From Lentisphaerae bacterium GWF2_57_35 (lineage in GTDB: Bacteria; Verrucomicrobiota; Kiritimatiellia; CAIQIC01; GWF2-57-35), in assembly GCA_001804865.1 (NCBI GenBank), contig MHBK01000045.1, positions 43,946 through 107,945 on the forward strand: a stretch of DNA of 64,000 nucleotides. The letters are read 5' to 3'. Position 1 is the stretch's first letter. Each line of letters opens with the position of its first letter. A program made the translations under genes and the position numbers. The notes beneath the pieces were generated by a model that saw only the letters and a program-made list of their open reading frames with translations, had not been told where the DNA came from and made no database searches. Below are positions 988 through 46,300 of this stretch, one piece after another.

Positions 988-1223
988 TTTTTCTCCTTGT
1001 AGGGGTTCGAATGAGAACAGTCGCAGCAGAAGAAGATTTCGTCGGAAAAAAACGCGCTAAACCCGTTTTATGTTCCACTGTAAAATTCTTGTATCGCTTA
1101 AAGACGTACGATATCGTTTTATTGACGATTGGCGTTACCTTGGCCGTCGGAGGCAGTTCCTGAACGCATTCTGGCTTGTACGTGCTGTTCAGTAGTTTTT
1201 CGTTACAAGGGGGGATCTATCTC

Positions 1224-4200
1224 ATGGGGCGTTTACTCAACGGAGACATTCTGAATGTGGCCGCATCTTCTTTATGGGCTCTTTGGATGCCTTTTGCCAT
1301 TTGTACCGAAGCCTTTGCCCAATCAGACGCGCTCCTTTTCTCGGAAAACTTCGAATCGGGCGCCCTAATCAGTAATTGGAGCACTTACTCCACCGGCCAA
1401 GGCCAAATCGAACTCTCCACGAATTTCTCTCCCTGCCAAGGGAACCGGCATTTGGCGATGGACGATATGCAGAGCGACGAGATTTTTTCGCTCAACGAGC
1501 TGGTGTTGACACTCGATCTTTCCGGCTCTTCCAATCTCTGGCTCAGCTTCCATTATCGCAACTTGCATGACGAGACCCATGCCATGCCTGAAGTATTTTC
1601 CGGGCACTGCAATGCCGACGGAGCCGCCGCCAGCAGCGATGGAGGCCTGACCTGGCATCGCTTGGCCGATTTCCATCAAACCGGTTCCGATCTTTACCAA
1701 TTCTTCGACCAAAGACTCGACGGATTGCATCCTGACTTGCATCCCGTCGCCAACTTCATGATCAAGTTCCAGCAATATGACGATGCCCCGGCCGATGAAG
1801 ACGGCCTGGCTTTAGACGACATCCGCGTACGAATGGCCCAGCCGCTTCCTGCGGCGGATCTCGCGATGAATTTGCAAGCGTCCGCCGCTTCTGTCGCGGT
1901 CTCCAATTATTTGCATTACACGATTCGGGTCTGGAACAATGGCCCCGCAGACGCCGGCGGCATAACCATTACCAATTCGCTCTCCGAAAATATCGAGTTT
2001 TTAAGCGCCTCCCCGGGCGGCAGCTACCAAGAAGAACTCCATCAGATCGTCTTTCAAATCCCGTCTCTGGCCAAGTTTGCCGCCACGGAGGTTTCGTTTC
2101 TGGTCAGACCTTGGACAAGTGGAACGGCCTTCGTGACCTCCAAGGCGTCCGGCGCGGGAACGGATCTGACGGCGACGAATAATGAGGCCATCGCAATCGT
2201 CAACATCTTCAGCCCAACCGACCCTGCCGTCGACTTAGCCTTGCAGATGACGGTCCTTGAAGAGACGGAAGATAATTTTACGCTGGGTCTGGCGGTTATA
2301 CCCGGCTCATCCGTTACCTGTCAGGTGGCGGTTGTCCGCATGGATGCCGAGGAAACGGTCGCGTCCAATGTCATGCTCCGGCTCCTCCTGCCGCCTGAGT
2401 CCACCGCCCTATCCTATCCGCCGGGAACCAAACTCTGCGGGCGAGAGCTGCTATGCCCCTTGGGCGATTTGGCCAGCCTGAGCTCCACCAATGCCTCCGT
2501 TATCTTCTCCGTCAGCCAAAGAGGATCGAATTTCATAACGGGTTGGGTCTATTGCGACAGTCCGGAGTCCGCTCCCGCGAATAATGGCGGCGCCAACTCG
2601 GTCTTTGTATCGCCTTCCATTCGGTGGGAACAGGTTTTAGGCAGCGTTGTCGATGGGGAGTACTTGTCGGCCGCCTACATTGGAAACGGAGGGAGCGAAT
2701 TCAAGCTTTTGGACTACGATTCCGATGGCGATTTGGATCTCTTCTCGCCTGGCCAGCTATGGGAAAACAAAGGAACTCGCCATGCTCCCATGTGGACAAA
2801 GCCTAAGAACTTTGGGCTGCCTTTCCAAGGAGACTATGGCGATCTGGATGGGGATGGAGAACTGGAAGCCGTTTGGTGCACACATTCATCCTCAGAACCC
2901 TTCACTACTGATTTATGGCTTACCGACTACGTGTTCAGCAATTCAATCCCTACAGGGTCTTCATCCAATCAGCTTGTAGACTCTTTTTTTACTTCCTGTT
3001 GGCGAAATCCCCCTGTTCTGTGCGACATCGACGGCGATGGGCTTCAAGATCTGTTCATTGACGTCAATACCTATACGGAATCCTACGAATACACAAACAG
3101 CATTTGGTTTTACCACAACACGGGCACGGTTCACGAAGCCCAATGGGCGCCGCCGGACACTCAATATTTGGCATCTTGCGAACACGATTACGTGCGGTTA
3201 CAGTTCTGGGATGTCGGCAACGACGGCGATTACGACCTGATGGTTTTACCCATAGACGCGAATGACTACCACACCAACATCTATTTCTACGAAAACATCG
3301 GCTCCAGGACAACGCCCGTCTGGGCAACGCCCACCCAGATGGAGCATGACGTTGGCTGTGAATTTAAATTTTGGGCCATGCCGGCATTCGGCGACATGGA
3401 CGCCGATGGGGACATCGACATGTTTGCCATGCCCGATCTGCATGGCTGGGTCTACGGTTCCGCCCTTGAGTATTATGAGAATCGCGCGACAAACGGCATA
3501 GCGCAATGGGTCAAGACAGGAAAGCGATTATGGTTCGATGTAGGCAACCATTCGGCTCCCGCCCTCGGCGATGTGGATGGAGACGGCGATCTCGATCTTT
3601 TTGTCGGACGCTACGACTGGACCAGTTCTGTGCCTGGAGATCTCTTGTTCTACCGTAATGAGGGAAGCCCTTCCTGTCCGGCGTGGCAGTTCGAACCCGA
3701 AAAAAGCTTCTATCGCCTTGCCGAAGCGTCCTACCCCAAACCGGCCTTCTGCGATATGGACGGCGACGGGCTTCAGGATCTGTTTGTCGGCACGGATAAC
3801 CAGCTATTGTGCTTTAAGAATACCGGCACCGTGCAGGAAGCGTATTGGGCGGCCCCATTTGCCTATGAAAGCTTGGATTGCACTAACGCCCCCAGCCCCG
3901 CCTTCTGCGACATCAATGGCGATGGCTTGCAGGATTTGTTTGTGACAAAAACTACGGTTGTTTCAATGGGGCCTGGCTGGACTCGCTGGGTTGAGTTGCA
4001 GTGCTACATCAATACCGGCACTTTAACAGAAGCCCAGTGGAGGTTCGCTCCGGAAATGTCTTTCTCCGATACCTACTGGTATCTCGACGGCGTCGCTTTT
4101 TCGGATGCCGATGGAGATGGCGACCAAGATATGCTCATTTCCATGGGAATAGCATTTATGGGGTCCCCCAACTCAAGATGCTTGTTCTTGTATGAAAATT

Positions 4201-7200
4201 TAGGATCGCCAACTAATGCAGTTTGGGCAAAGGATATACGGAATAGATTGCTGATATATAACGATAAAGGCGATGGTTTTACGGGCATAAGCATTGGCGA
4301 TCTGGACGCGGACGGCGATCTGGACTGGTTACTGGGCAACTGGGAAGGAGGGCTTCGTTTCTGCCGCAATACAACGCCGAAGCTTCAGATCTCGCCCTCC
4401 GATCGAACGCTGGAACCGGGAGAGGGCTGCGACTTCGACGCGACAGGCGCTTCCGGCCCGTTGGAGTGGTCCTTCATCCGCAGTACCAGCGGCGGCACTC
4501 TTCAGACCAACAGCGGTCTCTACATGGCCGGGCCCACCAATGGACTGGATATGGTCCAAGCTACGGCAACCAACGGATTGATAGGCCGCGCTTTCATCAA
4601 CGTGATGGGCTCCAATACGCTCCAGAGTTCCGACTGCGCCATATTGATCGCCGGACGCAATACAACCTATTCGTTCGATCCGGTGTGGCGGGCCACCGAC
4701 TACCTGGCCAACTCCGCCTATAACACGCTGCGTTACTTCGGTTATTCCAAGGCCTCGATTCGTTATCTAAGCCCAGTGAGCCAGCAAGACGTCGACGGCA
4801 ACGGGCTCTTCGACGATATCGATTTGGAGAGCGCCCTGGCCCATGTTTCGCAGACGTTCACCAACTGGGCCAACGGCAGCTCCAACCTCTTTCTCTACCT
4901 GGTCGATCATGGAGGAGTCGATGAGGGCATTGGCTACATGCGTTTGAGCCCCGAAGAGGTCTTGAGCGCAACCAGCCTGGCCGTCTGGTTGAACGATCTG
5001 CAAAATACGTACGGCACACGCGTGAGCGTGGTGATGGACTTTTGCAATGCCGGCCGTTTCTTGCCTGCGTTGGCCTGGACCGGCTCCGCCTCCCGCGTTG
5101 TCATTGCCGCCTCGGCGGCCCATGAACCAACCTACTTTGTCGCGGGCGGCTTGGTCAGCTTCTCCGAAACCTTCTTCAATGCTTTGTTGCAGGGCCTCAA
5201 CTTGAACAGCGCCTTTCGCCTGGCCCGCGATGCCGTCAGCGGCTATCAACAGGCTTGCCTGGACGATAATGGCGATGGGGTGTTCGACAAGGATGTCGAC
5301 GGCGCGCAAGCGGCCGCTTCTACGCTTAAAACCTCCGCATCCATCCATCGCGACATCCCTCAGATTGCCGACAGTTCTCCCAATCAAGAATTGAACGGTG
5401 CCGCTTCGGTCGCCCTCTGGGTCTCCGGAGTCTCGGGCGCCTATCCCATCGATGCGGTCTGGGCCATGGTCGTACCGCCCGGCTATAACCCCGACCCAAC
5501 CAACCCGATCGTCGACCTGCCCGAAGTGCCGCTCTACTACAACACGCTCTCCAGCCGCTACGAAGTCTGCTATGACGGCTTCAGCCAGCCGGGAACGTAT
5601 CAAGTGATCTACTACGCCCGCGATGTGTTGGGCAGCATGTCCTTGCCCAAGTACGGAAGCCTCCATCAGAACGGCCTCTCGGAGTTGGCCATCCTGGTCG
5701 CCGGCGGCCCCACCAACTCGCCCGGCTGGCCGGCGATCGACGCGGCGAGCCGGTGCGCGTATCACACCCTGTTGGCCCGTCGTTTCAGCGACGAGAGCCT
5801 GTCCTTTCTTAGCGCAGCCCCTTATCGAGACTTCAATGCCGACGGAACCAATGACGTCGACGGCTCTGTTTCAAGGGCCGCCTTGAGCCTCGCGATCACT
5901 AACGGGGCGGCCGGGGCGGACAAGCTGACGGTTTACCTCACCGGCGTAGGAACCAACGGGACGCTCCAAATGGAGGACGCAGAGCATCTGACGTCCGCCG
6001 AACTCGACGGGTGGCTCGATATCTTTCAAACCAACGGCAGCCCCGTCACCGTCGTCATGGATTTTGCCGGATGCGGAAGCTTCGTCACGAACATGAGCGC
6101 CCCGCCAGGCGCCGAACGCATCCTGATAGCCGGCAGCGGTATCGACGAGCCCTCCGTCCACTATGCCGATCTGGGCTTCAGCCAGATTTTCCTAAGCTAT
6201 CTGTTCAACGGCGCAAATATTCGCGATGCCTTCCGGCAGGCCCGCGACGGCCTCTTCAACTTGACGCACGGCTTGCAAGATCCGCTGCTCGACGACAACG
6301 ACAACGGGACGCCCAACGAAAAGACGGAAGGCGAACGGGCTCGAACCCGCTACATCGGCGCGGCCTTCGTCACCGGCGCCGATACGCCCGTCATCGGCTC
6401 GATCACGCCCGACGCCGTGCTGGCCTCCGACAACGAGCTGCTGTTGTGGGCCGACGAAATCGTCGATGCCGACGGCCTTTCCGCCGTCTGGTGCGTCATC
6501 ACCCCGCCCGACTACGAGGGCAACGAAACCCTGATTTCCGTGGATTTGGCCTGGAACGAAACCACCAGCCGCTATGAAGCCGAATACAGCGGTTTCAGTT
6601 CCCCTGGCGTCTACGCGTGCAGCTTCTTTGCCATGGACGCCCTCGGCGAGATCTCCAGCCCACGCCAATGCGAAGTCCTAAGCGCGGATGCCTATGAACC
6701 CGACAACCATCCGGCTCAGGCCGGCTTCTTCGATCGAAGCGGCTACCAGCACCACAATTTCCATCAAGCCTATGACGAAGATTGGGTCTTCTTCTATGCC
6801 CCCACCGGCTATCCTTTCGAGATCCGCACCGTCCAGCTCGGAACCAACGTCGACACGGTTCTGGAACTCTACCGCCAGAACCCCGACCGTTCGCTCACGC
6901 TGATGGCTCAGCGCGACAGCCAGGGCGCCGGACGCGGCCAAGGCGAGTATCTTTTGCTCGAGAGCCCCACCAACGCCTTCTATTATGTGAGGGCGAGTCC
7001 TTACGATCGGCTCGGAGTCGGCTCTCGCTCCGAATACGACCTGCAAATCGGCATCCCCTCCGCCGGCATCGGCCGCAATCTTATCGTCATCGCCGTGGAT
7101 CGAGTCTTCGCCCGCCCCCTGCCATCCGGCGCCTGGGCCCGGCTCGATGAAGCAACCGCTTATTTCGGCGAGTCCATGAGCCTGGAATTTACCGGTCTTT

Positions 7201-8078
7201 CCGCCGGAACGCATGCGTTGGATGTGCCCTCGCCGGACGGCTATCGTCCCATGGAAGATCCCAAGACCCCCGGCCAAGTTCAAAACGCCGCATCCAGTTA
7301 CGGAAATCCCCGCTCGATCCGGATGTCCGTCGATTCGGCCTGGAACTACGCCTGCTTCTGTTTTGAGCCTTATATCCAAATTCAAGGCCTGGTGCGCGAC
7401 GGATGGAGCCGGCAACGTCTTAACGGTTTGCATCTGAGCTTTACTCCGTTGTCCGGACCGCCGGCCGCCTGGCCCGACAACGTGCATGACGGGTACCCCA
7501 ACGAGGCTGACTACAAGAGCCTTTGGATAACCGAAGACGGCCGGTTTCCCACGAATGTCCTGTTGCCTCCAGTCGATTGGTCGCTCTCTTTGCATCTGGA
7601 TGGCTACAGCAATCGTTTGTTCTCAGCCTTAATCACCAACACGGACGCCGGCCGCCTGATCGACTTGGGCGAACTGAGCCTGCCGCCGCTGGACCAAAAT
7701 GCCAATTCCCTGCCGGACCGTTGGGAAGCCATTGCCTTCGGCTCCATGACCAATGCCGCCGCCGACGACGATTCAGATGCCGACGGCATGGACAACTGGA
7801 GCGAATACCTGACCGGCACCGATCCGGACAATGTCGACAGCCTCTTTAAATTCGACCGCCTCGCGTCCACCACCTCCGATTTTCAATGCGTCACCCTATC
7901 CTGGCAGGCAACGCCCGGCCATGCCTATCGGATCATGGGCTCGGACCATCTTGCATCCAACTCCTGGAGTCTTCTGGCCGGCCCCTGGACCAATCAAACC
8001 CAAACCTTCATGTCCTGGTCCGACACCAACGAGCCGGCCGCCTGCCGATCCTTCCGCGTGGAAGAATCAAGACCATAA
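1224..8078 (+). CDS. giant secreted multidomain protein: DUF11 repeat, ~10 FG-GAP/VCBS repeats, two tandem legumain-like (clan CD, C13-like) caspase-fold domains, pre-peptidase C-terminal (PPC) domain, thrombospondin-type-3-like Ca-binding motif plus ~90-aa C-terminal beta domain
   Basis: The ORF 1176-8078 has no stops. ATG at 1224 (MGRLLNG...WMPFAICTEAFAQ, signal peptide) is preceded by AAGGGGGG. One Asp-box (SSDGGLTW). DUF11-like segment (LHYTIRVWNNGPADAGGITITN). Repeated CDIDGDGLQDLF / GDVDGDGDLDLFVG FG-GAP/VCBS motifs. FLYLVDHGGVDEGIGYM ... VSVVMDFCNAGRF matches the legumain His-Gly ... Cys arrangement. A second copy is LTVYLTGVGTNG ... VTVVMDFAGCGSF. The PPC domain is YEPDNHPAQAGF...YDEDWVFFYA...EYLLLESPTNAFYYVRASPYD. 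The C-terminus is DDDSDADGMDNWSEYLTGTDPDNVDS then ...CRSFRVEESRP. Confidence 0.85.
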   Translation: MGRLLNGDILNVAASSLWALWMPFAICTEAFAQSDALLFSENFESGALISNWSTYSTGQGQIELSTNFSPCQGNRHLAMDDMQSDEIFSLNELVLTLDLSGSSNLWLSFHYRNLHDETHAMPEVFSGHCNADGAAASSDGGLTWHRLADFHQTGSDLYQFFDQRLDGLHPDLHPVANFMIKFQQYDDAPADEDGLALDDIRVRMAQPLPAADLAMNLQASAASVAVSNYLHYTIRVWNNGPADAGGITITNSLSENIEFLSASPGGSYQEELHQIVFQIPSLAKFAATEVSFLVRPWTSGTAFVTSKASGAGTDLTATNNEAIAIVNIFSPTDPAVDLALQMTVLEETEDNFTLGLAVIPGSSVTCQVAVVRMDAEETVASNVMLRLLLPPESTALSYPPGTKLCGRELLCPLGDLASLSSTNASVIFSVSQRGSNFITGWVYCDSPESAPANNGGANSVFVSPSIRWEQVLGSVVDGEYLSAAYIGNGGSEFKLLDYDSDGDLDLFSPGQLWENKGTRHAPMWTKPKNFGLPFQGDYGDLDGDGELEAVWCTHSSSEPFTTDLWLTDYVFSNSIPTGSSSNQLVDSFFTSCWRNPPVLCDIDGDGLQDLFIDVNTYTESYEYTNSIWFYHNTGTVHEAQWAPPDTQYLASCEHDYVRLQFWDVGNDGDYDLMVLPIDANDYHTNIYFYENIGSRTTPVWATPTQMEHDVGCEFKFWAMPAFGDMDADGDIDMFAMPDLHGWVYGSALEYYENRATNGIAQWVKTGKRLWFDVGNHSAPALGDVDGDGDLDLFVGRYDWTSSVPGDLLFYRNEGSPSCPAWQFEPEKSFYRLAEASYPKPAFCDMDGDGLQDLFVGTDNQLLCFKNTGTVQEAYWAAPFAYESLDCTNAPSPAFCDINGDGLQDLFVTKTTVVSMGPGWTRWVELQCYINTGTLTEAQWRFAPEMSFSDTYWYLDGVAFSDADGDGDQDMLISMGIAFMGSPNSRCLFLYENLGSPTNAVWAKDIRNRLLIYNDKGDGFTGISIGDLDADGDLDWLLGNWEGGLRFCRNTTPKLQISPSDRTLEPGEGCDFDATGASGPLEWSFIRSTSGGTLQTNSGLYMAGPTNGLDMVQATATNGLIGRAFINVMGSNTLQSSDCAILIAGRNTTYSFDPVWRATDYLANSAYNTLRYFGYSKASIRYLSPVSQQDVDGNGLFDDIDLESALAHVSQTFTNWANGSSNLFLYLVDHGGVDEGIGYMRLSPEEVLSATSLAVWLNDLQNTYGTRVSVVMDFCNAGRFLPALAWTGSASRVVIAASAAHEPTYFVAGGLVSFSETFFNALLQGLNLNSAFRLARDAVSGYQQACLDDNGDGVFDKDVDGAQAAASTLKTSASIHRDIPQIADSSPNQELNGAASVALWVSGVSGAYPIDAVWAMVVPPGYNPDPTNPIVDLPEVPLYYNTLSSRYEVCYDGFSQPGTYQVIYYARDVLGSMSLPKYGSLHQNGLSELAILVAGGPTNSPGWPAIDAASRCAYHTLLARRFSDESLSFLSAAPYRDFNADGTNDVDGSVSRAALSLAITNGAAGADKLTVYLTGVGTNGTLQMEDAEHLTSAELDGWLDIFQTNGSPVTVVMDFAGCGSFVTNMSAPPGAERILIAGSGIDEPSVHYADLGFSQIFLSYLFNGANIRDAFRQARDGLFNLTHGLQDPLLDDNDNGTPNEKTEGERARTRYIGAAFVTGADTPVIGSITPDAVLASDNELLLWADEIVDADGLSAVWCVITPPDYEGNETLISVDLAWNETTSRYEAEYSGFSSPGVYACSFFAMDALGEISSPRQCEVLSADAYEPDNHPAQAGFFDRSGYQHHNFHQAYDEDWVFFYAPTGYPFEIRTVQLGTNVDTVLELYRQNPDRSLTLMAQRDSQGAGRGQGEYLLLESPTNAFYYVRASPYDRLGVGSRSEYDLQIGIPSAGIGRNLIVIAVDRVFARPLPSGAWARLDEATAYFGESMSLEFTGLSAGTHALDVPSPDGYRPMEDPKTPGQVQNAASSYGNPRSIRMSVDSAWNYACFCFEPYIQIQGLVRDGWSRQRLNGLHLSFTPLSGPPAAWPDNVHDGYPNEADYKSLWITEDGRFPTNVLLPPVDWSLSLHLDGYSNRLFSALITNTDAGRLIDLGELSLPPLDQNANSLPDRWEAIAFGSMTNAAADDDSDADGMDNWSEYLTGTDPDNVDSLFKFDRLASTTSDFQCVTLSWQATPGHAYRIMGSDHLASNSWSLLAGPWTNQTQTFMSWSDTNEPAACRSFRVEESRP

Positions 8079-15362: not shown

Positions 15363-15767
15363 CTATTCGAGCTTCACCTTTCCCGGCTCACCCGGAGGAG
15401 GCTCCTCTTTGACGGGTTTCGGCTCGAAACGATTGCAGGTGTCGGTGGCCTCCACTTCCTTTTTGTGCAAGGCGCACCACTGCATGAAGGGATTAACCAC
15501 GTAATTGACGCAATGACGGCAGAGGCGTTCCGCTTCGCCTTCATGGAAAACCTTGACAGGCGCCGGACGATCCGCTTCGGTAAAAACGCGGAGAACTTCC
15601 TTTTCCTTGAAAGGAACCTCCTCCTCCCCGGCAAATTCGTGGCCGCAAGCCGCACAGGCAAAGGAATCGCCGATGCGGGTAAATCCGTCGTATTTCGGGT
15701 TGCGAATTACAAACGTATCGGCGCCACAAACGGTGCAAAGTATATCGACTGATTTCCGTTCATTCAT
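15363..15767 (-). CDS. zinc-ribbon protein (two CxxC...CxxC clusters), function unknown
   Basis: 134 aa. First cluster CTVCG...CAACGH; second CRHC...C...C. Acidic/Pro-rich tail. Lies tail-to-tail with the DUF2851 gene. Confidence 0.5.
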   Translation of the reverse strand: MNERKSVDILCTVCGADTFVIRNPKYDGFTRIGDSFACAACGHEFAGEEEVPFKEKEVLRVFTEADRPAPVKVFHEGEAERLCRHCVNYVVNPFMQWCALHKKEVEATDTCNRFEPKPVKEEPPPGEPGKVKLE

Positions 15768-15858
15768 CGTATGGCCATTTGCCAGTTATAATAAACTCTG
15801 CTTTTATACGAAAAAAAAGAAAATATGCGCAAGAAAAGGGGTATGCATAGTCTCTACC

Positions 15859-17442
15859 ATGTATGAAAAGACAAAGCGCCATTCTGAAACGACCTTTTTC
15901 ACCGGCATCACCCGAGGGCAATGGACCGGCTATATACTGCTCGGCGCCGCCATTTTTCTGTTGTTTTTCTTCGTTTATGTTCAAGCTCGGCGCTCCTTGA
16001 TCAATGAAATCAGGCATCATGTCATGGGCGTCGCGGCCGCATCCGCCGCCGGACTCGATGCCCGGCTGATCCAACAAGTATGGAGTCCTGCCGACGTTTC
16101 CACACCCGCCTATCGAAGCCTCCAGGAGCGGCTGGACCGCATAGCCTTAAACACGCCGGACATCCGATACATTTACACCATGAGGCGCAGTCTGAAGGAT
16201 CAAGCCTTGTCCACGGATTACGAGTATGTAGTGGACGCCAGCGCGCGCGATCGCAACAACAATCAAGAGATCGACCCGGACGAAATCTGCGAACCGCCCG
16301 GCAAGGATTACAGCGCCCAAGACCTGCCGGAACTTGTAAGGGCGTGGTACACCCCGGCCGCCGACCGATCCATCAGCGCCGATCCTCCCTATCCCGATTT
16401 GATTTCCGGCTATGCGCCCATTCGAAATCACTTGGACCAAACGGTCGCCATTGTCGGGGTCGATATCACCGCCTCCACCGTACAAGCCAAACTGCTGGCT
16501 CTTCAAAGCGCTTTGTGGGCCGTATGGCTCATCGTGACCCTGTTGATCGTGATGCTGTTGCAGCTATACTATCGGCAACAGGAGGCGCTCGAACAGATCA
16601 AGAGTCTCAGTCAGGATCTAACCGAACGCAATGAAACGCTGCGTGCGGCCAATCTCGATCTCGCCGAATCCAACGAGCGATTCACCAAGGACATTCGTCT
16701 CGCCCAATCCATGCAGCTCCGCCTCATGCCGCGCAGTTTTCCGCACCAGGATAAGATCCGCTTTGACAAGCTTTACCTGGCCGGCGACTTGCCCGGCGGA
16801 GATTTCTTCGATGTCTTTGCGTTGGACGACCGGCACTTGGCTTTGTTCATGGCCGATGTATCCGGTCACGGCATGTCGACCGCCCTGGTGTCCGGTCTGC
16901 TCAAAGCCGCCTTTTCGGCAGCGCGCGAGAAGTCCGACAGCATCCCGATTTCTTTTCATGCCGATCTATGGACTCCTGGCGCCGTCTTGGCTGCCTTAAA
17001 TGAAATGCTGATCAAGGAGATTCCCGAGTATGAATTCATCACGATGATTTATGCCGTGATTCAATTGGACTCCTCGACCGTTCGTATGGCCCGGGCCGGA
17101 CATCCCGCTCCCATTCATTTCTCTGCAAAAGACGGCGTCGCCCGCTTGTGGGACATCCCCGCAGGCGCTGCCTTAGGCCTGATCGCCAAAAGAGACTATC
17201 CCGCCGTGGAGTATATCGCGCAATCCGGCGACAAGATGGTTTTTTTCACGGATGGGCTTCCCGGCGCGCTCAACGAAGCCGGCGAAGCCTTTGGCGAAGA
17301 GCGCCTGCTGGACCTGGTTCAACGAAACGGCTCGCAACCCACGGATCAAATCATCGCCGCTCTGAACCAAGCCATCGAAGGCCATCGGGGCTCTTGCGCC
17401 GTCAGCGACGATTACACGCTGTTGATCGCCGAGATTTGTTGA
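15859..17442 (+). CDS. membrane sensor PP2C-type Ser/Thr phosphatase (SpoIIE/RsbU family) with periplasmic Cache-like domain
   Basis: TM1 GYILLGAAIFLLFFFVYV, a ~270-aa extracytoplasmic region, TM2 LWAVWLIVTLLIVMLL, a coiled coil, then the PP2C core (GDFFDVFALDD...MADVSGHGMSTAL...FFTDGL). The ORF-track start at 15553 is unlikely because of the AT-rich promoter-like region at 15770-15858. Confidence 0.85.
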   Translation: MYEKTKRHSETTFFTGITRGQWTGYILLGAAIFLLFFFVYVQARRSLINEIRHHVMGVAAASAAGLDARLIQQVWSPADVSTPAYRSLQERLDRIALNTPDIRYIYTMRRSLKDQALSTDYEYVVDASARDRNNNQEIDPDEICEPPGKDYSAQDLPELVRAWYTPAADRSISADPPYPDLISGYAPIRNHLDQTVAIVGVDITASTVQAKLLALQSALWAVWLIVTLLIVMLLQLYYRQQEALEQIKSLSQDLTERNETLRAANLDLAESNERFTKDIRLAQSMQLRLMPRSFPHQDKIRFDKLYLAGDLPGGDFFDVFALDDRHLALFMADVSGHGMSTALVSGLLKAAFSAAREKSDSIPISFHADLWTPGAVLAALNEMLIKEIPEYEFITMIYAVIQLDSSTVRMARAGHPAPIHFSAKDGVARLWDIPAGAALGLIAKRDYPAVEYIAQSGDKMVFFTDGLPGALNEAGEAFGEERLLDLVQRNGSQPTDQIIAALNQAIEGHRGSCAVSDDYTLLIAEIC

Positions 17443-18989: not shown

Positions 18990-19445
18990 ATGAATACCTT
19001 TGAACATTCCCGTTCATTCGGAATGAATGTCCCCGGCGATGCACAGTCCCTCTCCTTGATACGATTGCTCATGACTCATCTGGCCGAGACGGCAGGCTTC
19101 GCCGAAGAAGACATTGGCAAAATCGAGATTGCCGTGGACGAGGCCTGCACGAACGTGATCGAACATGCCTATGCCGCCATTTCGCCCAAACCTTCCATCC
19201 GGCTCGAAGTCGAATCGAATGCCGAGCAGCTCAGGGTGGACATCGTCGATCAGGGACAATCGTTCGACTATAATTCGTACATCCCCCCGAAATTCCCGGA
19301 TCACTGGAACGAAGGACATAAACGGGGCGTGGGCCTTTACCTGATCCGGAAATGCATGGACGACTCTTCCTATACCCGGTTGCCCGATCGAAGCAATCGG
19401 CTGCGTTTGATCAAGAAACTTTCCAAACCCGGCGATTCAAATTGA
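18990..19445 (+). CDS. RsbW-like anti-sigma regulatory factor (Ser-protein kinase, HATPase_c_2)
   Basis: 151 aa. IAVDEACTNVIEHAY...GVGLYLIRKCMD is the GHKL kinase signature of RsbW/SpoIIAB-type proteins. Confidence 0.8.
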   Translation: MNTFEHSRSFGMNVPGDAQSLSLIRLLMTHLAETAGFAEEDIGKIEIAVDEACTNVIEHAYAAISPKPSIRLEVESNAEQLRVDIVDQGQSFDYNSYIPPKFPDHWNEGHKRGVGLYLIRKCMDDSSYTRLPDRSNRLRLIKKLSKPGDSN

Positions 19446-19890: not shown

Positions 19891-20871
19891 ATGCCGATCG
19901 ATGGCTCAGGCCGATCCGTTCGCTATCTCCGCATCTCCCTGACCGATGCGTGCAATCTGAGCTGCCGGTACTGCATGCCGGACCAGATCGCATTCCGGCC
20001 CGCCCGGGAATTGATGACCAACGAAGAGGTGTTGCGACTGATCCAGCAATTTGCCGCGGTGGGCTTTGAAAAAATCCGGTTTACGGGCGGCGAACCGACT
20101 TTGCGGGACAACCTGTTGGGGTTGATCCAAAGCACTCGGGAGCTTGACGGCATACGGGAGGTCGTTCTCACCACCAACGGCTTGCTGCTCAAGGAGCTGG
20201 CCCGGCCGCTCGTTCATGCGGGGCTGCAACGGGTCAACATCAACCTGAATACGCTTCAGCCCAGGGTCTACCGCCGGATCACCCGCGGCGGACGCTTCAA
20301 GGAGGCCTGGGAAGGACTGCTGGCCGCCGACCGCGAGGGACTTCAAATCAAGATCAATTCCGTCATCCTGCGCGGCTACAATGACGGCAAAGACCCGGCG
20401 GAATTGGCGCGCCTTACCTTGACTCGCCCCTGGGACGTAAGATTCATCGAAGCCATGCCTTTGGGCAGCGTCGCGAGCTTCCAACAGTCGTCCCGTGTCA
20501 GCGAATCCAAAGTGCGCCGGATGGTCGTCCAGGCGCTGGGCCCCTTAACGCCCGTTCGAGACAGCCGCTCCGGCGGCCAGGTCCGCTTGTATCGCCTCCA
20601 AGGAGCGTCCGGCCGCGTGGGATTCATCAGTTCGGTAGCGCATCCCTTCTGCGATAAATGCACCCGCGCCCGCCTGACGGCCGACGGCAAAATGCGTCTT
20701 TGCCTTCTTCAGGAGGATGAAATCGATCTGCTGACCCCTCTTCGCGAAGGCGCGACGGACAAGGCCCTGCGAGAGCTGATCCGAAAAGGGCTGAAACGCA
20801 AGCCAGCCGGTCACGATCTCGCGCATCGAAAAACCCCAAGGAATCGGGTCATGTCTGAGATCGGCGGATGA
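19891..20871 (+). CDS. moaA: GTP 3',8-cyclase MoaA (radical SAM, molybdenum cofactor biosynthesis)
   Basis: YLRISLTDACNLSCRYCMP (CxxxCxxC radical-SAM cluster), GGEPTL, and a C-terminal CDKCTRARLTADGKMRLC second-cluster motif. Confidence 0.95.
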   Translation: MPIDGSGRSVRYLRISLTDACNLSCRYCMPDQIAFRPARELMTNEEVLRLIQQFAAVGFEKIRFTGGEPTLRDNLLGLIQSTRELDGIREVVLTTNGLLLKELARPLVHAGLQRVNINLNTLQPRVYRRITRGGRFKEAWEGLLAADREGLQIKINSVILRGYNDGKDPAELARLTLTRPWDVRFIEAMPLGSVASFQQSSRVSESKVRRMVVQALGPLTPVRDSRSGGQVRLYRLQGASGRVGFISSVAHPFCDKCTRARLTADGKMRLCLLQEDEIDLLTPLREGATDKALRELIRKGLKRKPAGHDLAHRKTPRNRVMSEIGG

Positions 20872-40316: not shown

Positions 40317-43300
40317 TTACGGTACGCGAATGCGGAAATACCCTTCAACCGCCTCCACCCCCAGCGTGACTACATTGTCCACCGGGGTGGGAGGCGCATT
40401 CGTACAGATAACTCTCCAAGCCCCCTCCAAGTCTTCGTTCCGCTCCAGATACTGCAAAACCCCCGTCCCTCCCTGCCAATAAATCAAGCCGGCACTGCTT
40501 TCCGTGCGTATCTGGCCCAGCCGCAAACAAGACGTTGCGTTGGTTGGATTCGTATCGACCCGGAATTCCTGCCAGGAGAAAAGACCGTCAGAATCGGCAT
40601 CCGCTTCGACGTCCGCCTCAAAGTTCGTCAGACCGTATCTCGCCAGCCACGCTTCGGGGATGCCGTGGTTGGTCGTCAGATTTGCGGTGAAAGAGGCGCC
40701 GATCGATTTGGGCGAATCCATCCACAGTTCCAAGGGGTTCACGCTTCCCGAAACGTCGCCGGTCCACTGGACGAAGTGACAGTAGGCATCGGCCAAGGCC
40801 GCGATGGACGTCGTTACCCCGGCGGGCTGCCAGCCTGACGGCACATTCACGGCGCCCTGCGCTCCGGCGCCCGTCGCCAGCCAGAAATTGGTGGTCCACA
40901 ACCACGCCAACATCGCGTCGTTGGTTACCGCCATCGTGAATTCCGTCGCAGAACCGGACGCCGGGTCGTGGCCGGTCATGACCCAGCCGCAACTGACGAA
41001 CTGGGTGGCGCCGCGCGTGTCGGGCGTCGTCACGCGATGGGTCACGAGGGTCTCCTCGACCAGCAGATGGGCGCCCGTGGAAAGCTCGGACGAACCGTAA
41101 CAGGACTCGACCGAAACCGTATACAATCCATAGACGCGGAAGAGGTTGGTGATCGTCGGAGCCGGGAACCAGTTCTCGTTGCCGGTCTGCGCGGCGGCGA
41201 TGGAGACATAGCCGCGCTGGGTGAAGGAAAGCAAGGTCGTGTCTTCGATCGACGCGGGACCGGATTCGATGGTGTAATCGATCTTGAAGTTGGAATCGGC
41301 CGAGGCCGCCAGCCGAACCGTGTTGGTGACCACCTGGTTCCCCGGCGTGGGGAAGGCAATGGCCTGTTCGGCCCGCTGAACGATCAGAGTCGAGGCCGCC
41401 ATGCCCATGCTGTCGAGCTCCGTGACGGCGCCGGTGACGACATAGACGCCGGCCTCGACAGGCACGTTCGTCTGGCCATTGTACGTGAACCCAACATTCA
41501 ACCCGGAAGGATCCGTCGTTGCCGTCACATAGCGGGGATAGCGGTTATAGAGCTGGACCAGGTTGTCCAGATAGACCGTCGCACTGCTCCGATAGCGATA
41601 GGCGTTGGATTTGACCGTTTCGCCATAACCGGCGGAATACACCCGCACATCTCCCAGCCCCACGGAACCGGCAGCGGTCTGCACAACCACTTGGGTAGAA
41701 CACTGGCTGATCACGCTCGCGACCGGAGCGCCGCAGAACGTCACGTTCGTAATGTCGGTCCCATTGCCCAGGTTTTCCCCGTCGATGACCACGGCCGCGC
41801 CGCCTTCGACCGGACCGTTGGTCGGATTCACGCCGAAGCGATATTGCACCCAGGCCGGCGACCATCGGGCGGAATTGGTCATGGCGATAAGGCCCGACTG
41901 GGTGAAATCGCCGCCCGCGAAGACCTGGCCGTCGGGTCCGAATTCCAAGGCTCTGACGACCGGCGATGAAAGCTTGGTCAATCCTTGTCCAAGGCCACTC
42001 CAGGACGATCCATTCCAATAGGCCACGCAAGACACCACGACTCCTCCGGCCGCATAGAAAGCGCCTCCTGCATACAACCCGTCTTTTCCGGCTGTCTTCA
42101 GTGCATAGACGGTACTGCCCATGCCTCCTCCCACGGAAGACCAAGACGTGCCGTTCCACTTGGCCAGGCGGTTCACGGTTGAACCGCCGGCGAAAGAAAA
42201 GGAACCGCCCACGTAGAGTTCGCCGCGCTGCCCCAGCGCCAACGCGTAAGCCGTGCTGCTTAAGCCCGACCCCAGATTGGTCCACGAGCTTCCGTTCCAG
42301 TAAGCCACGCGATTGGCGGCCTGGCTTCCCGCATTCGTGAAGTCCCCCGCAGCATACAGGCCGCCGTTCGTATCGAGCGCGAGGGCTAAAACCGTAGCCC
42401 CCAGGCCAGCTCCCAAATTCGTCCAGACCGCTCCATTCCAGAAGGCGACCCGATTGGCCGGCATACCGCCCGCCGTCGTGAAAGCTCCCCCGGCATAAAC
42501 GTGCCCGTTGGAGTCAACCGCCAGCGCGGCGACGGAGGCGTTCATTCCACTACCCATCGCCGTCCAGGCCCCTCCCGTCCAACAGGCGATATAATCGGTC
42601 AAAAAGCCCATCCCCGTTGTGAATCCTCCCCCGGCATACAGAACACCGCCGCCGACCGAGGCAATGGCATTAAGCAAGCTGAGGCCCGGACAGGCATTCG
42701 TCCAGGACGTTCCCATCCAGCGCATCACCCCACTGCCCGAATACGATCCGGCATATAACGATCCATCCACCGGATCGATCGTGAACGAGTATACGGTGGA
42801 ATTGATGCCCATCATATTGGTCCAGGCATAAGGGCCGTAGTCCGTGCGGCCGATCGTCCCGTTCGGGTTGTACGTGTAAGCGTCTTCGAGCAGCGTGTTG
42901 CCTTGAAGGACGGATTGAACGACTACGTCAACCGCCCCGGGGTCGTGACCGGGCACGCTGAATTCCACCCAATTTTCGCCGGACGCTTGAATGGCCGCGT
43001 TCTGTCCGCCGATCACTACATTGGTGATCGCGTCTCCGCCGGGCAGGACCAGATTGGTAACGATCAGGCTGTTGCCTCCGGCCTCCGGCCCGGCCGATAC
43101 GCTCAAATCGAATCGCCCCCAACCGGCCAGATTCACCGTGTAGTTGGTGAAGTCGTTCAAGAGGGACACGACGGCGCTTTGAGCGCCTCCCGCCACAGGA
43201 CTGAATACGACCGAGAAGGCGTCCGTTTCTCCCGGCGCAACCGTTGCGGGCCATCCGGAAATACAGAACCGCGCCGCCGCAGCGCCGCTGGTGGAAACGC

Positions 43301-46300
43301 CGGTCATGTGCAAATCGTTGGATTCGATGTTCGTGACGAACAGGATGCTGGTTGCGGACGAGCCCACCTGCACTTCACCGAAGTCGGTGCCCGCCGCCGG
43401 CAGGGCCGGCTCGCCGCTGGGCAGCACGATCAGGCTGTTGGTTCCCAAAACCAGGATGCGCGGTGCGTAGTAGGCGAAAGCATTAGATTTGACGGTATTC
43501 CCATAAGTCGTGGAATAGACGACGACATCCCCCAGCCCGGCCGGCCCGGCATTCGCCTGCACAACGACCTGGGTCGAACACTGGCTCAAGATCCCCGTCG
43601 CCGAAATCCCGCAAAGGGTCACGTTGGTAATGTCCGAACCACTGCCCAAATTCAGGCCCTGGATCGTCACGTTCATGCCGCCCAGGGTCATGACGGAGGC
43701 AGGATGCACCCCCAAGTTGACCACCTGCGCGCTCGCCCACTTGGCAATGCCGCTGGCCGACACAACGCCCGCTGTCCCGAAATTGCCGCCCACCAATAAT
43801 TCACGATCCCCCGTCGCCAGCAGGGCGCTAACCGATCCCCCGCGGACGCCCGAGCCCAAGCCCATCCAGTTGGTCCCGTTCCACGAGGCCATGCCGGCGG
43901 CCGGAGCGGAATCCGCCGTCGTAAACGATCCTCCCGCATAAATCAATCCGTTCGGATGCTCCAACAGCGTATTCACGTAGTTGTTCATACCGACGCTCAT
44001 GCCGCCCCAGGCGCTTCCCGTCCATCGGGCGGCATAACCGCTGACCGTTGTGAAAATCCCGCCTATGGCCAAGACGCCGTTCGTACCGCACATGATATCG
44101 TAGACTGTATTGTTGACGCCGCTGCCGAGGGCATGCCAGGCCGCGCCATCCCAGTAGGCTACGCGCGAGGCCGCCCCTCCGCCCGCCGAAGTAAAACTTC
44201 CCGCCGCATACAGCATGCCGTCAGATCCCCAGGCCAAAGAGTTGACCGGAGCATTCAACCCCGAACCCAGATTGGTCCACACGGTTCCATTCCACATCGC
44301 CACGCGAGTGGCCGGCATCCCGCCCGCCGTGGTGAAGCCCCCGCTCGCATACAATTCCCCGTTGGAACTCAGAGCCAGAGCCGAGGCATAGCTGTTGAGG
44401 CCCGTGCCCAGATTCGTCCACGTCGAGCCATTCCAACAGGCGATGTAATTGGCCGATTTTCCGCCGGCCGTCGTGAAGCTGCCGCCGACATAAAGCAATC
44501 CCCCGGTCGTCGCCAGCAGCGCGCTTACCGAGCCGTTCATGCCCGAGCCCACATTCGTCCAGGCTGTTCCATTCCACCGGGTGATGTGATCGACCCGTGT
44601 CCCGTCTGCATAATAAAAACCGCCGCCGGCATAGATGACGCCATCCGGGGTGCGCGCCAAAGCAACCACCGAATGAGCGCTGCCGGATACCCCAACGCCC
44701 AGGTTGGTCCACCCATAAGGCTCATAGCCGGACCAGCCGATGACGCCGGAAGGCTTGTACTCGTAGACTCGATCCAAAACGAGCTCGCTCGTTCCCTCCG
44801 TTTGCAGCACGATATCCACCCAACCGGCCTCATGCGCCGGCAAGACAATGGACAACCAGTCGTCTCCCTGCCCAACGATCGCCGCCGAAATACCGCCCAC
44901 CCATACATTGGTGACGGTTGACGCCCCGCCAAGAGCCAGATTGGTCAAGGTCAACAGCCCCCCGCCGACGGCAGGCCCGGCGCGAGCGCTCAGGTCATAA
45001 ACGCGACAGCTCAGGTTCAGGATGAAGTTCGTCCCTTCGCATGGGATCGTCAACCAGGCATCCCGCCGGCCCACTTGGGCGCCGGTAAATACCACGGCGA
45101 TGTTGCTGCTTATGTCATGAGACATCGGCCCTTCGGGGATGCCGCCGAAGGAGAAGGAGCTTTGCCCCGGGCCCTCGACCCACGACGTTCCCATGTAAAC
45201 GGTCCGGGCGGCGTCCGCCTTTAAAAGAAACCTGTTGGTCCTGGACTCGCCTTTCAGCACAAGCCCGGCATCCGTGCCAAAGTTCGTCTGGGCTGGGGCG
45301 CCATACGGCACATCCACCCCCGCCTCCGTCTCCACATACAACGCCGGAGGCCGATCCGGATTCGGGCTCGGCAGCAGATCGCCGTTGCCCATGTAGATGG
45401 CGTTGGTCATGCCGCCAGTGCCGGCGCGCGCCAGCGTACCGGTCAAGCGGACATTATCCAGGAAGAAGACATAGGGCATGTTAAAGAGCGTATGCGAGAC
45501 ATTGATCGAGAGTCCGTCGATCAGATTCCAGTGAGCCGCGACCTTCGGCCATGACGGCGGCGTGTTGAACTGGCTGAGACGAAAACTGAAATGCTGAAAA
45601 GCGCCGTTATTCGTATAGCTCGTCGGACGCAAAGTGACGCCGTCGAGACCCGTGCAGACAGCCAGTTCTACAGGGCAAGTAAGCCCTCCCGTGCCGTTGG
45701 TTTTCTGAATGCAGAGGTCAAAGCTGAACCAGATGTTCGAACGCAGGGCCAGGGAGGAGAAGTCTTCAGCCCGATCGAGCGCCCAATGATAGGTATGCCC
45801 GCTGTATGTGAAATAGGACCGGGTGCAAAGATATAGAAATTGCGATTGCCTCCCGTGGGTGCGAGGTTCAAGGCCGATGCCTTCGTCCCACCAGTAAGGC
45901 TTGTCGACGCTGTCCCAAAGCCAGACGAGCATCGGCGCGTCGTTGATGTAACTGGGCTTGATATTCCCGGGGACGCGATCCTCGAAGCTGTCGATCAGAT
46001 CCGACGTGATCGGCTCGGCCACCAGCAGGCTTCTCCACCAGGCATTGGTGGGCATTTCGGCCGGCGTCGTAATGCTGAACATATGCATCCCCGATCCGCT
46101 TCTCGTGACCCAATTGGTCGTCAGCAGAAGATTGGTATGCACATCCAGCAGGTCCAGGACAATTCGATAACTTTGCTGCACCACATCGTCCTCCGACGGC
46201 GGCCATTGATGCTCACGATTCAGCGGACAGGGGCCTTCCTCCGGGAGATACGAGGGAACGTCCTCCCACGTGACGGGAATTTCATACGTGGTATTCGGCG

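What the first reader, a model, noticed from the sequence alone, without database searches (positions are those of the whole stretch)
7740..8078. Shared C-terminal module in two of the three giant proteins: thrombospondin-3-like Ca-binding motif plus ~90-aa beta domain ending F-R-[VI]
The C-terminus of protein 1224-8078 (DDDSDADGMDNWSEYLTGTDPDNVDS...TLSWQATPGHAYRI...WSLLAGPW...CRSFRVEESRP) and of protein 40317-49148 (encoded at 40317-40640: EADADSDGLFSWQEFRVDTNPTNATS...IYWQGGTGVLQYL...GAWRVIC...YFRIRVP) align with a conserved skeleton. That skeleton is DxDxDG(M/L)xxWxE(Y/F)...TxPxN..S...(L/I)xWQ..G..Y.(I/L)...W..(L/I)...FR(V/I) within the last 10 residues. A conserved terminal domain on otherwise unrelated giant secreted proteins is the signature of a sorting, secretion or cell-surface anchoring signal, analogous to T9SS CTDs or PEP-CTERM. 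This one matches neither obviously. The 19-kb gene lacks it and ends instead ...KLIYTLPTRFMSP.
Basis: seen in the sequence. Interest (0 to 1): 0.55.

Follow-up and report, generated by a model that had tools for sequence, protein, structure and literature searches.

The report
Shared C-terminal tail of PVC giants
Two giant exported proteins of this Lentisphaerae/Verrucomicrobia-group bacterium end in the same ~125-residue module, a calcium-binding loop packed onto a small fibronectin-III-like beta-sandwich; many surface proteins of related bacteria carry it at their very last residues, so it is a good but unproven candidate for a cell-surface anchoring or sorting tag.

Summary
Both giants (1224-8078 +, 40317-49148 -) end in one composite module: an EF-hand-like bacterial TSP3 unit followed by a ~75-aa beta domain ending (F/Y)-Y-R-(V/I)-x-V-x(1-2)-COOH. 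An HMM built without the window sequences finds exactly these two tails in the window (E 4e-9 and 2.6e-7).

The module is widespread. The whole-module profile hits 30,075 50%-identity clusters, though many match through the TSP3 half alone. Hits are almost all from the PVC superphylum.

Position is strongly conserved. All 42 significant copies in 37 independent genomic loci stop 0-6 residues before the stop codon. Among the top 153 hits, 58 of 67 carriers have a terminal copy.

Passengers are diverse, both window giants have Sec signal peptides, and "choice-of-anchor" domains often sit just upstream.

This fits a C-terminal surface-anchoring or sorting tag. However, tandem and internal copies exist, and no partner machinery, cleavage site or conserved neighbour was found. 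It is not a T9SS CTD, PEP-CTERM, LPXTG or T1SS signal. The sorting reading is plausible (~0.45) but unproven.

The parts
1224..8078 (+). Gene for giant protein 1 (2284 aa from ATG 1224; the ORF opens at TTG 1176). It has FG-GAP_3, DUF11 and a Peptidase_C13-like segment and ends in the tail module.
   Evidence: ORF list; Pfam. The database protein P0045 starts at ATG 1224 and is contained in the window translation; it is named 'hypothetical protein', Lentisphaerae bacterium GWF2_57_35.
1224..1319 (+). Predicted Sec signal peptide of protein 1 (MGRLLNGDILNVAASSLWALWMPFAICTEAFA | QSD).
   Evidence: N-terminal sequence read directly, with a GGGGGG Shine-Dalgarno-like run upstream of ATG 1224. The cleavage site is inferred by eye; no predictor was run.
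7692..7838 (+). Tail 1, Ca-loop half: a degenerate first loop plus helix (DQNANSLPDRWEAIAF), then a canonical 12-residue EF-hand-like loop DSDADGMDNWSE (7770-7805) plus helix, then TGTDPDNVD.
   Evidence: Translation. TSP3-unit HMM hit at residues 2176-2226 of the stop-to-stop ORF, i-E 4.6e-17, the only significant copy in this protein; the window tails are among the 28 sequences that HMM was built from. Weak Amuc_1099_fam match over the same residues. AF2 helices at 9-15 and 35-41, pLDDT 88-95 for this half (10-residue block means).
7839..8075 (+). Tail 1, beta half: 79-aa six-stranded FN3-like sandwich SLFKF...TLSWQATPGHAYRIM...WSLLAGPW...FMSWSD...CRSFRVEESRP, ending 0 residues before the stop codon (8076-8078).
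40317..49148 (-). Gene for giant protein 2 (2943 aa). It has an N-terminal GH42-like domain, Rax2/DUF5122 propeller repeats, a choice-of-anchor D domain, TIG, MBG_3 and Flg_new_2, and ends in the tail module.
   Evidence: ORF list; Pfam and NCBIfam. Cluster members P0043/P0166 are named 'hypothetical protein'.
49071..49148 (-). Predicted Sec signal peptide of protein 2 (MRNRVVFCLRVLVCTLIFCAPLLARA | GGG).
   Evidence: N-terminal sequence read directly. The cleavage site is inferred by eye.
40533..40679 (-). Tail 2, Ca-loop half: GIPEAWLARYGL helix, then EF-hand-like loop DADSDGLFSWQE (40566-40601) plus helix, then VDTNPTNAT.
   Evidence: Translation. TSP3-unit HMM i-E 5.4e-20, the only significant copy in the protein; the window tails are among the 28 sequences that HMM was built from. 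Amuc_1099_fam E=5.7e-6 over residues 25-72 of the 142-aa fragment.
40320..40532 (-). Tail 2, beta half: 71 aa SCLRLGQIRTESSAGLIYWQGGTGVLQYLERNEDLEGAWRVICTNAPPTPVDNVVTLGVEAVEGYFRIRVP, directly followed by the stop codon (40317-40319).
   Evidence: Independent HMM E=4e-9, domain 2882-2952 of a 2952-aa stop-to-stop ORF.

Best explanation
The two tails are members of a large, so far unmodelled, mainly PVC-superphylum family of C-terminal modules.

Each module has two parts. The first is one bacterial TSP3 / EF-hand-like Ca2+-binding unit: a helix, a 12-residue DxDxDGxxxWxE loop, a second helix and T(D/N)PxNxxS. The second is a compact six-stranded FN3-like beta-sandwich (strands A, B, C, C', E, F; no G strand). 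Its last strand, (F/Y)YR(V/I)xV, lies 1-2 residues from the free carboxyl end.

Proposed mechanism (inferred). The giant proteins are exported by Sec through their N-terminal signal peptides. After they cross the outer membrane by an unidentified route, the Ca2+-stabilised terminal module holds the C-terminal end of the protein at the cell surface. It would do so by non-covalent binding to an envelope component, while the variable passenger (glycosidase, beta-helix, propeller, lectin, protease) projects outward. On this reading it is a portable C-terminal surface-retention or sorting tag.

Shown: the sequence family, the predicted fold, the terminal position, the diversity of passengers, the taxonomic range and the Sec signal peptides.
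Inferred: Ca2+ binding, surface location, and the anchoring or sorting role.
For: - Family membership: an independent HMM finds both tails. The whole-module profile hits 30,075 representatives at E<=1e-3 and 8,298 at <=1e-10.
- Terminal position: all 42 beta-domain hits with i-E<=1e-4 in 37 independently fetched loci end 0-6 aa before a stop codon. Of 67 carriers among the top hits, 58 have a copy ending <=10 aa from the C-terminus. 46 of 63 tails have just 3-4 residues after FYRV.
- Portability: passengers include FG-GAP/DUF11/C13, GH42/TIG/MBG, PKD, Laminin_G_3, LVIVD, DUF5123 and parallel beta-helix.
- Choice-of-anchor domains: choice_anch_Q ends directly before the module in 7 of 10 carriers tested, and window protein 2 has choice_anch_D. 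By NCBIfam's naming convention (my knowledge), these domains occur upstream of alternative C-terminal sorting signals.
- Sec signal peptides on both window giants.
- Paralogy: several genomes contribute 2-4 loci each, and 5 loci carry a second tail-bearing gene within 3 kb.
- In the two window giants the TSP3 unit occurs once only, fused to the beta domain. AF2 models the two halves as one rigid unit (pLDDT 88.7, pTM 0.76).
Against: - The beta domain is not strictly terminal. There are 49 internal copies in the top hits, mostly tandem arrays with 130-aa or 83-aa periods, and a few deep inside giants (P0037, P0048, P0117).
- The TSP3 half is a common internal repeat.
- No partner gene is conserved next to carriers.
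- No sorting or secretion genes were seen in the 64-kb window.
- The fold is an ordinary FN3-like sandwich.
- There are no experimental data and I found no literature on it.
- The genomic loci were fetched with a narrow motif, and the top-150 list is ranked by a profile containing the tail, so both samples are biased towards complete modules. Neither is biased towards terminal position.
Confidence: 0.45

Rival explanations
1. It is an ordinary structural or ligand-binding FN3-type domain with an adjacent Ca2+ loop, acting as a stalk, spacer, oligomerisation or carbohydrate/adhesion module. It has no role in sorting. Its frequent terminal position would reflect shuffling of a common 3' cassette among paralogous surface-protein genes.
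For: - FN3-like fold, with remote sequence similarity to the Fn3 module of C. thermocellum CtXyl5A.
- Tandem and internal copies exist.
- TSP3 repeats are generic Ca-binding spacers in adhesins such as MtsD and CglD.
- No cognate machinery was found.
Against: - The end of the domain is placed very tightly relative to the stop codon: 0-6 aa in all 42 significant hits in the loci.
- This holds across very different passengers and at least three PVC phyla.
- Generic FN3, PKD and Big domains in the same proteins are internal.
- The module directly replaces the position expected for an anchor after choice-of-anchor domains.
Confidence: 0.33
2. It is a true export signal: a folded C-terminal domain recognised by a dedicated, still unknown outer-membrane translocon of PVC bacteria and then cleaved off, functionally analogous to the T9SS CTD of Bacteroidota.
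For: - The overall logic matches T9SS cargo: an N-terminal Sec signal peptide plus a ~75-aa beta-sandwich at the extreme C-terminus of many diverse, often giant, surface or secreted proteins.
- The last strand is conserved.
Against: - No sequence match to Por_Secre_tail, TIGR04183, TIGR04131 or CHU_C at E<=1 in 28 members.
- Tandem duplicated tails and internal copies are atypical for an export signal.
- No candidate translocon or peptidase was seen near carriers.
- T9SS is not known in PVC phyla (my knowledge, not tested).
Confidence: 0.15
3. It is a type I secretion (RTX-like) C-terminal signal preceded by Ca2+-binding repeats, as in giant T1SS adhesins.
For: Ca-binding loops lie immediately upstream of a C-terminal element in giant adhesin-like proteins.
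Against: - Both window giants carry classical N-terminal Sec signal peptides, which T1SS substrates lack (established knowledge).
- There are no GGxGxD nonapeptides.
- No ABC transporter, MFP or TolC genes lie nearby.
- The tail is a folded beta-sandwich rather than a disordered or amphipathic signal.
Confidence: 0.02

Closest known systems
T9SS C-terminal domain (CTD; Por_Secre_tail PF18962 / TIGR04183) of Bacteroidota
   Same: A ~70-90-aa beta-sandwich at the extreme C-terminus of many unrelated, Sec-exported, often very large surface or secreted proteins, with several to many carriers per genome.
   Different: - No detectable sequence similarity.
- Structure searches return FN3 domains, not CTDs.
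- Six strands with an obligatory TSP3 Ca-loop in front.
- Tandem and internal copies occur.
- Taxonomic range is PVC, not FCB.
- No PorU/PorV/Sov-like genes were seen.
Bacterial TSP3 repeat (PF18884), as in Myxococcus MtsD/CglD and the Akkermansia Amuc_1099 family
   Same: The N-terminal half of the module is one such unit (DxDxDGxxxxxE loop plus helix plus TDPxxxxS). 18 of 28 family members hit PF18884, and 24 of 28 hit the TSP3 region of Amuc_1099_fam.
   Different: - The two window tails themselves stay below Pfam reporting.
- In both window giants the unit is single, and across the family it is fused to a terminal beta domain. TSP3 repeats in general are internal arrays of up to 40 per protein.
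Bacterial FN3 modules, e.g. the Fn3 of C. thermocellum CtXyl5A (PDB 3mpc / 5g56)
   Different: - The alignment stops at FN3 strand F. No G strand is present or predicted, even in internal copies.
- No Pfam fn3 hit.
- Strong C-terminal positional bias.
Dockerin (PF00404), the cellulosome anchoring module
   Same: A C-terminal, Ca2+-dependent pair of EF-hand-like loop-helix motifs that tethers diverse enzymes to a cell-surface scaffold. In canonical members of this family two loop-helix units (DxDGDGMPDxWE ... DxDGDGxxNxxE) precede the beta domain. This is a functional analogy for the anchoring hypothesis.
   Different: No Pfam dockerin hit at E<=1. An added FN3-like domain forms the actual terminus. 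No cohesin-like partner has been identified.
'Choice-of-anchor' proteins (NCBIfam choice_anch_Q NF041518, choice_anch_D NF012200)
   Same: Carriers contain these domains, often immediately upstream of the tail. NCBI names some carriers 'choice-of-anchor Q domain-containing protein'.
   Different: These models describe the upstream domain, not the tail. The tail is not one of the anchors I know from NCBIfam's lists (PEP-CTERM, LPXTG, T9SS and similar; my knowledge).

Membership tests
Bacterial TSP3 repeat (PF18884) | 12-residue acidic Ca-binding loop DxDxDGxxDxxE followed by a short helix and a TDP-type turn, with a match to the Pfam HMM | tested here: inconclusive
   The loop is plainly present in both tails (DSDADGMDNWSE, DADSDGLFSWQE). 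18 of 28 aligned family members hit PF18884 (best E=5.4e-13). The two window tails give no Pfam hit at E<=0.1, only Amuc_1099_fam and MtsD hits below cut-off.
Fibronectin type III fold | Beta-sandwich with FN3 topology and structural similarity to solved FN3 domains | tested here: met
Fibronectin type III fold | Seven strands A, B, C, C', E, F, G; match to Pfam fn3 (PF00041) | tested here: not met
   Only six strands are predicted in the terminal copy and also in the internal copy of a tandem pair. The alignment to 3mpc ends at strand F, residue 74 of 103. No fn3 hit at E<=1 in 28 members.
T9SS CTD (TIGR04183 / PF18962; type B TIGR04131 / CHU_C) | Match to the CTD HMMs | tested here: not met
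   None of these models appears among the families reported at E<=1 for 28 members, in Pfam or NCBIfam.
T9SS CTD (TIGR04183 / PF18962; type B TIGR04131 / CHU_C) | Extreme C-terminal beta-sandwich on Sec-dependent cargo | tested here: met
   Terminal position; signal peptides. This is a resemblance in logic only.
T9SS CTD (TIGR04183 / PF18962; type B TIGR04131 / CHU_C) | Presence of T9SS machinery (PorU/V, Sov/SprA, GldK-N) in the genome | not testable with these tools
   Only 64 kb of the genome is available, and none of these genes is in it.
PEP-CTERM / exosortase and LPXTG / sortase signals | Short motif (PEP or LPXTG), then a hydrophobic transmembrane helix, then a basic cluster at the C-terminus | tested here: not met
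   No hydrophobic segment: the maximum 19-aa Kyte-Doolittle mean over 64 tails is 1.48, with a mean of 0.74. The tails end in P, Q, E or R after a beta-strand. No matching NCBIfam model was hit.
Type I secretion (RTX) C-terminal signal | No N-terminal signal peptide; GGxGxD nonapeptide repeats; adjacent ABC/MFP genes | tested here: not met
   Both giants have Sec-type signal peptides. There are no nonapeptides in the tails and no ABC/MFP genes in the window.
Amuc_1099 family pilus-like system protein (NF042425) | Full-length equivalog match above the 50-bit cut-off | tested here: not met
   The window tails score 14.1 and 26.1 bits, matching only profile positions ~104-152 of 321, which is the TSP3 part.
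Dockerin (PF00404) | Match to the dockerin HMM; a cohesin partner | tested here: not met
   No PF00404 hit at E<=1 in 28 members. The partner question is not testable here.

The most novel reading that the evidence does not exclude
The TSP3 plus G-less-FN3 tail is the cargo tag of a dedicated, still undescribed outer-membrane sorting or attachment pathway of the PVC superphylum (Verrucomicrobiota, Kiritimatiellota, Lentisphaerota). It would be a counterpart of the T9SS CTD or of dockerin-cohesin, in which the exposed edge of the terminal F strand and the free carboxyl end are recognised, for example by beta-strand augmentation with an envelope receptor.
Probability: 0.15. Interest if true: 0.8.

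Novelty: new variant of a known kind. Interest (0 to 1): 0.5.

Why it matters
PVC bacteria such as Verrucomicrobiota, Kiritimatiellota and Lentisphaerota are major polysaccharide degraders. They encode many giant surface proteins, and how these proteins cross and stay attached to the outer membrane is largely unknown.

A portable C-terminal module with no Pfam or NCBIfam model for its beta half, present on many of these proteins and fixed at the last residues, has several uses:
- It gives a concrete handle for predicting the surface proteome of these phyla.
- It provides a bait for finding the partner machinery by phylogenetic profiling or pull-down.
- It points to an annotation gap: both window giants are 'hypothetical protein', and some TSP3-rich proteins exceed the cut-off of the Amuc_1099 'equivalog' model.

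If the module is only a structural FN3-type domain, the value is limited to a new domain family definition.

Tried and rejected
- Word-indexed homology searches with the two-tail alignment and with a beta-only alignment gave few hits (3 and 12). The index needs shared 5-mers, and a 75-aa domain barely reaches significance in 5.8 billion sequences. The exhaustive profile search and local HMMs replaced them.
It was rerun with the 5-sequence alignment, which narrows the motif and biases the sample.
- I first thought that terminal copies are FN3 domains truncated before strand G, while internal copies keep G. That would have hinted at donor-strand complementation. A tandem-pair model (pLDDT 74.5) shows the internal copy also lacks G, so G-lessness is a family trait and not a terminal truncation.
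- A search for conserved neighbours by all-vs-all BLASTP of flanking ORFs in the loci found nothing beyond close relatives.
- Four literature searches found no description of the module. One Omnitrophota preprint mentions TSP3 repeats and dockerins in giants but not this tail.
- The many short (130-230 aa) 'proteins' consisting of the tail only start inside beta-helix repeats and lack signal peptides. I treat them as C-terminal gene fragments, not as a stand-alone family.
Full report
**1. Observation**

The window holds three giant ORFs: 1176-8078 (+, 2300 aa), 40317-49148 (-, 2943 aa) and 20938-39957 (-, 6339 aa).
- Protein 1 ends ...LPDRWEAIAFGSMTNAAADDDSDADGMDNWSEYLTGTDPDNVDSLFKF...TLSWQATPGHAYRIM...WSLLAGPW...CRSFRVEESRP*.
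- Protein 2 ends ...GIPEAWLARYGLTNFEADVEADADSDGLFSWQEFRVDTNPTNATSCLRL...LIYWQGGTGVLQYL...AWRVIC...EGYFRIRVP*.
- The 19-kb gene ends differently.

Pairwise BLASTP aligns the first halves of the two tails (28% identity over 74 columns, E=2e-7). A strict regular expression for the Ca-loop motif finds only these two sites in all six frames.

For the beta half I built an HMM from 61 homologous tails that excludes the window sequences and their orthologues. Among 646 stop-to-stop ORFs of the window it hits only the two tails (E=4e-9 and 2.6e-7), each at the exact C-terminus.

**2. What the proteins are**

Both giants have N-terminal Sec-type signal peptides: MGRLL...TEAFA|QSD from ATG 1224, and MRNRVV...LLARA|GGG.
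- Protein 1 carries FG-GAP_3 repeats, DUF11 and a Peptidase_C13-like segment.
- Protein 2 carries a GH42-like domain, propeller repeats, TIG, MBG_3, Flg_new_2 and a choice-of-anchor D domain.

Exact copies exist in public data as 'hypothetical protein' of the MAG 'Lentisphaerae bacterium GWF2_57_35', also deposited as 'Verrucomicrobia bacterium'. The organism is therefore a member of the PVC superphylum. The third giant has PATR repeats and lacks the tail.

**3. How widespread the module is**

A profile of five tails searched exhaustively against 1.84 billion cluster representatives gave 30,075 hits at E<=1e-3, 8,298 at <=1e-10 and 149 at <=1e-30. The table shows two behaviours. Profile positions 2-50 (the Ca-loop half) match as an internal repeat, up to 40 times per protein. 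Full-length matches (positions ~4-124) mostly lie at protein ends. The 30,075 figure therefore overstates the number of true tails. Among the 153 sequences in hand, 67 carry the beta domain.

A single canonical tail used as a query retrieved 526 close relatives at the 90% cluster level. Most are unnamed and a few are called 'choice-of-anchor Q domain-containing protein'.

A motif-seeded scan of one genome per GTDB species returned 44 loci. Nearly all come from Verrucomicrobiota (Limisphaerales, Pedosphaera, Opitutales, Verrucomicrobiales), Kiritimatiellota (Pontiella, Kiritimatiellales) and Lentisphaerota. A few are short contigs in MAG bins labelled Acidoferrum or Bifidobacterium and may be mis-binned. 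Some hits (Caldilineaceae, Faecalibacterium bin, Akkermansiaceae) match the TSP3 half only.

**4. Positional conservation**

In the fetched loci I translated every stop-to-stop ORF and searched with the beta-domain HMM. All 42 hits with i-E<=1e-4, in 37 loci, end 0-6 residues before a stop codon. So do the two window copies. Selection of those loci did not use the stop codon.

Among the top representatives, 58 of 67 carriers have a copy ending <=10 aa from the C-terminus. The end is stereotyped: (F/Y)-Y-R-(V/I)-x-V-x(1-2)-COOH. There are 3-4 residues after 'FYRV' in 46 of 63 tails, and the last residue is Pro in 26 of 64. There is no hydrophobic transmembrane-like stretch.

The domain is not exclusively terminal. 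There are 49 internal copies. Most belong to tandem arrays whose last unit is terminal, either whole module repeated every ~130 aa or beta domain alone every ~83 aa. A few lie deep inside giants and are followed by another domain (P0037, P0048, P0117). One 'internal-only' case, P0056, looks like a frameshifted gene.

**5. Structure**

AlphaFold2 on tail 1 with a 28-sequence alignment gives a confident model (mean pLDDT 88.7, pTM 0.76). It has two short helices (residues 9-15 and 35-41) flanking the acidic loop, then strands at 67-72, 78-84, 93-100, 106-111 and 120-126, plus a short N-terminal strand around 53-58.

A model of a tandem pair (pLDDT 74.5) shows the same six strands in both copies, with a coil linker between them. 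The absence of strand G is therefore a trait of the family, not an effect of being terminal. This removed my provisional idea that only terminal copies are truncated.

**6. Comparison with curated families**

Pfam gives nothing for the window tails. For 28 family members it gives only TSP3_bac (18 of 28) on the first half. NCBIfam gives only partial matches through the TSP3 part: Amuc_1099_fam in 24 of 28, MtsD and CglD. No T9SS CTD, CHU_C, PEP-CTERM, LPXTG-type or dockerin model appears at E<=1.

The beta half therefore has no model in Pfam or NCBIfam, and four literature searches found no description of it. Absence from that library is not proof that it is undescribed.

**7. Context**

Pfam scans of the other window genes show housekeeping and regulatory functions: YchF, DUF2851, SpoIIE phosphatases, an anti-sigma-type kinase, MoaA/MoeA/MobA, RDD/GYF and an epimerase. 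There is no sortase, exosortase, rhombosortase, T9SS, T1SS or T2SS gene. All-vs-all comparison of flanking ORFs in the loci shows no conserved neighbour.

Five loci carry a second tail-bearing gene within 3 kb, and several genomes contribute 2-4 loci despite the narrow search motif. This indicates many paralogous carriers per genome.

Passengers are diverse: PKD, Laminin_G_3, LVIVD, DUF5123, parallel beta-helix, FG-GAP and GH42. In 7 of 10 carriers tested, a choice-of-anchor Q domain ends right where the module starts. By NCBIfam's naming logic (my knowledge), such domains precede alternative C-terminal sorting signals.

**8. Interpretation**

Established here:
- A composite TSP3 plus six-stranded FN3-like module exists.
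- It is mainly found in PVC bacteria and has no Pfam or NCBIfam model for its beta half.
- It is attached to diverse Sec-exported proteins.
- Its last strand is fixed at the carboxyl terminus.

The most economical functional reading is a portable C-terminal surface-retention or sorting tag, probably Ca2+-stabilised (confidence ~0.45). The rivals are:
- an ordinary structural or adhesive FN3-type end domain (~0.33);
- a cleaved export signal for an unknown translocon, analogous to T9SS (~0.15);
- a T1SS signal (~0.02, contradicted by the signal peptides).

Tandem and internal copies and the lack of any identified partner keep the sorting claim unproven.

**9. Verdict**

It was right that this is neither a T9SS CTD nor PEP-CTERM, and right that the module is positionally conserved and widespread. 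It underestimated that the TSP3 half is a generic repeat and that the beta half is FN3-like and sometimes internal.

I classify the finding as a new variant of known kinds: an FN3-like domain, and the class of C-terminal sorting or anchoring domains. It is of moderate interest now and would be of high interest if a cognate PVC pathway were found.

Noticed in passing
window 20938-39957 (-): A 6339-aa ORF lies 360 bp downstream of, and on the same strand as, tail-bearing gene 2. It has PATR (autotransporter-associated) repeats, HYDIN/DUF1573-type Ig, BACON_2 and a weak fn3 hit. It lacks the TSP3-FN3 tail and ends ...KLIYTLPTRFMSP. Its annotated start is probably too far upstream, since a signal-peptide-like stretch (LAVWGLLSWVALMGLPVAKG) begins near residue 63. 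Whether its own C-terminus is a different conserved end domain was not examined.
   Followed up: partly
window 19891-20871 (+), 49325-50653 (+), 51103-51747 (+): The molybdenum-cofactor genes moaA, moeA and mobA-like are split by the ~29-kb pair of minus-strand giant genes (20938-49148). Most of that block has higher G+C (about 0.58-0.64, with one 2-kb bin at 0.54) than the immediate flanks (0.54). This suggests the giant-gene pair was inserted into a Moco cluster.
   Followed up: no
window 1224-8078 (+), protein residues ~1236-1320: There is a Peptidase_C13 (legumain-like) segment (E=5.2e-6, partial: profile positions 109-188 of 258) inside an FG-GAP/DUF11 giant. It may be a surface protease or a transpeptidase-like domain. 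It was not examined for catalytic His/Cys.
   Followed up: no
window 15553-17442 (+), 18990-19445 (+), 59835-63992 (-): There are two SpoIIE/PP2C phosphatases, one fused to AAA_16, TPR and GAF (>=1385 aa; the ORF start listed lies 8 nt from the window end, so it may extend beyond it). There is also an HATPase_c_2 anti-sigma-type kinase. Together these are components of a partner-switching regulatory system.
   Followed up: no
P0058, P0135, P0015, P0022, P0079 (database proteins): Proteins with TSP3 repeats reach or exceed the 50-bit cut-off of the NCBIfam 'equivalog' model Amuc_1099_fam (up to 131 bits) through their TSP3 repeats, although the best-scoring stretch covers only part of the model (positions ~93-156 of 321). 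They may therefore be mis-named 'Amuc_1099 family pilus-like system protein' in automated annotation.
   Followed up: partly
P0169-P0288; L047 10001-10654, L048 1624-2277: Hundreds of 130-230-aa database 'proteins' consist only of the end of a beta-helix ('DIGAYEF') plus the tail. The three I read start inside beta-helix repeats without a signal peptide. One is split in the same way from an upstream 236-aa ORF in two independent assemblies. They are probably gene fragments or pseudogenes, but real short forms are not excluded.
   Followed up: partly
P0037 ~res 320-345, P0048 ~2296-2320, P0117 ~1490-1515: Where the module is truly internal, it is followed by a conserved 'G(T/S)N-x-(V/A)(F/Y)(S/A)(V/M)(N/D)G-x-GY' segment that starts another unidentified domain. 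This suggests a recurrent internal junction type in some giants.
   Followed up: no
L024, L027, L032, L042 (Pontiella / Pontiellaceae loci): Besides the terminal copy, each protein has a weak, partial beta-domain match (i-E 0.004-0.19) ~280-510 aa upstream of the end. These may be degenerate internal copies specific to this lineage.
   Followed up: no
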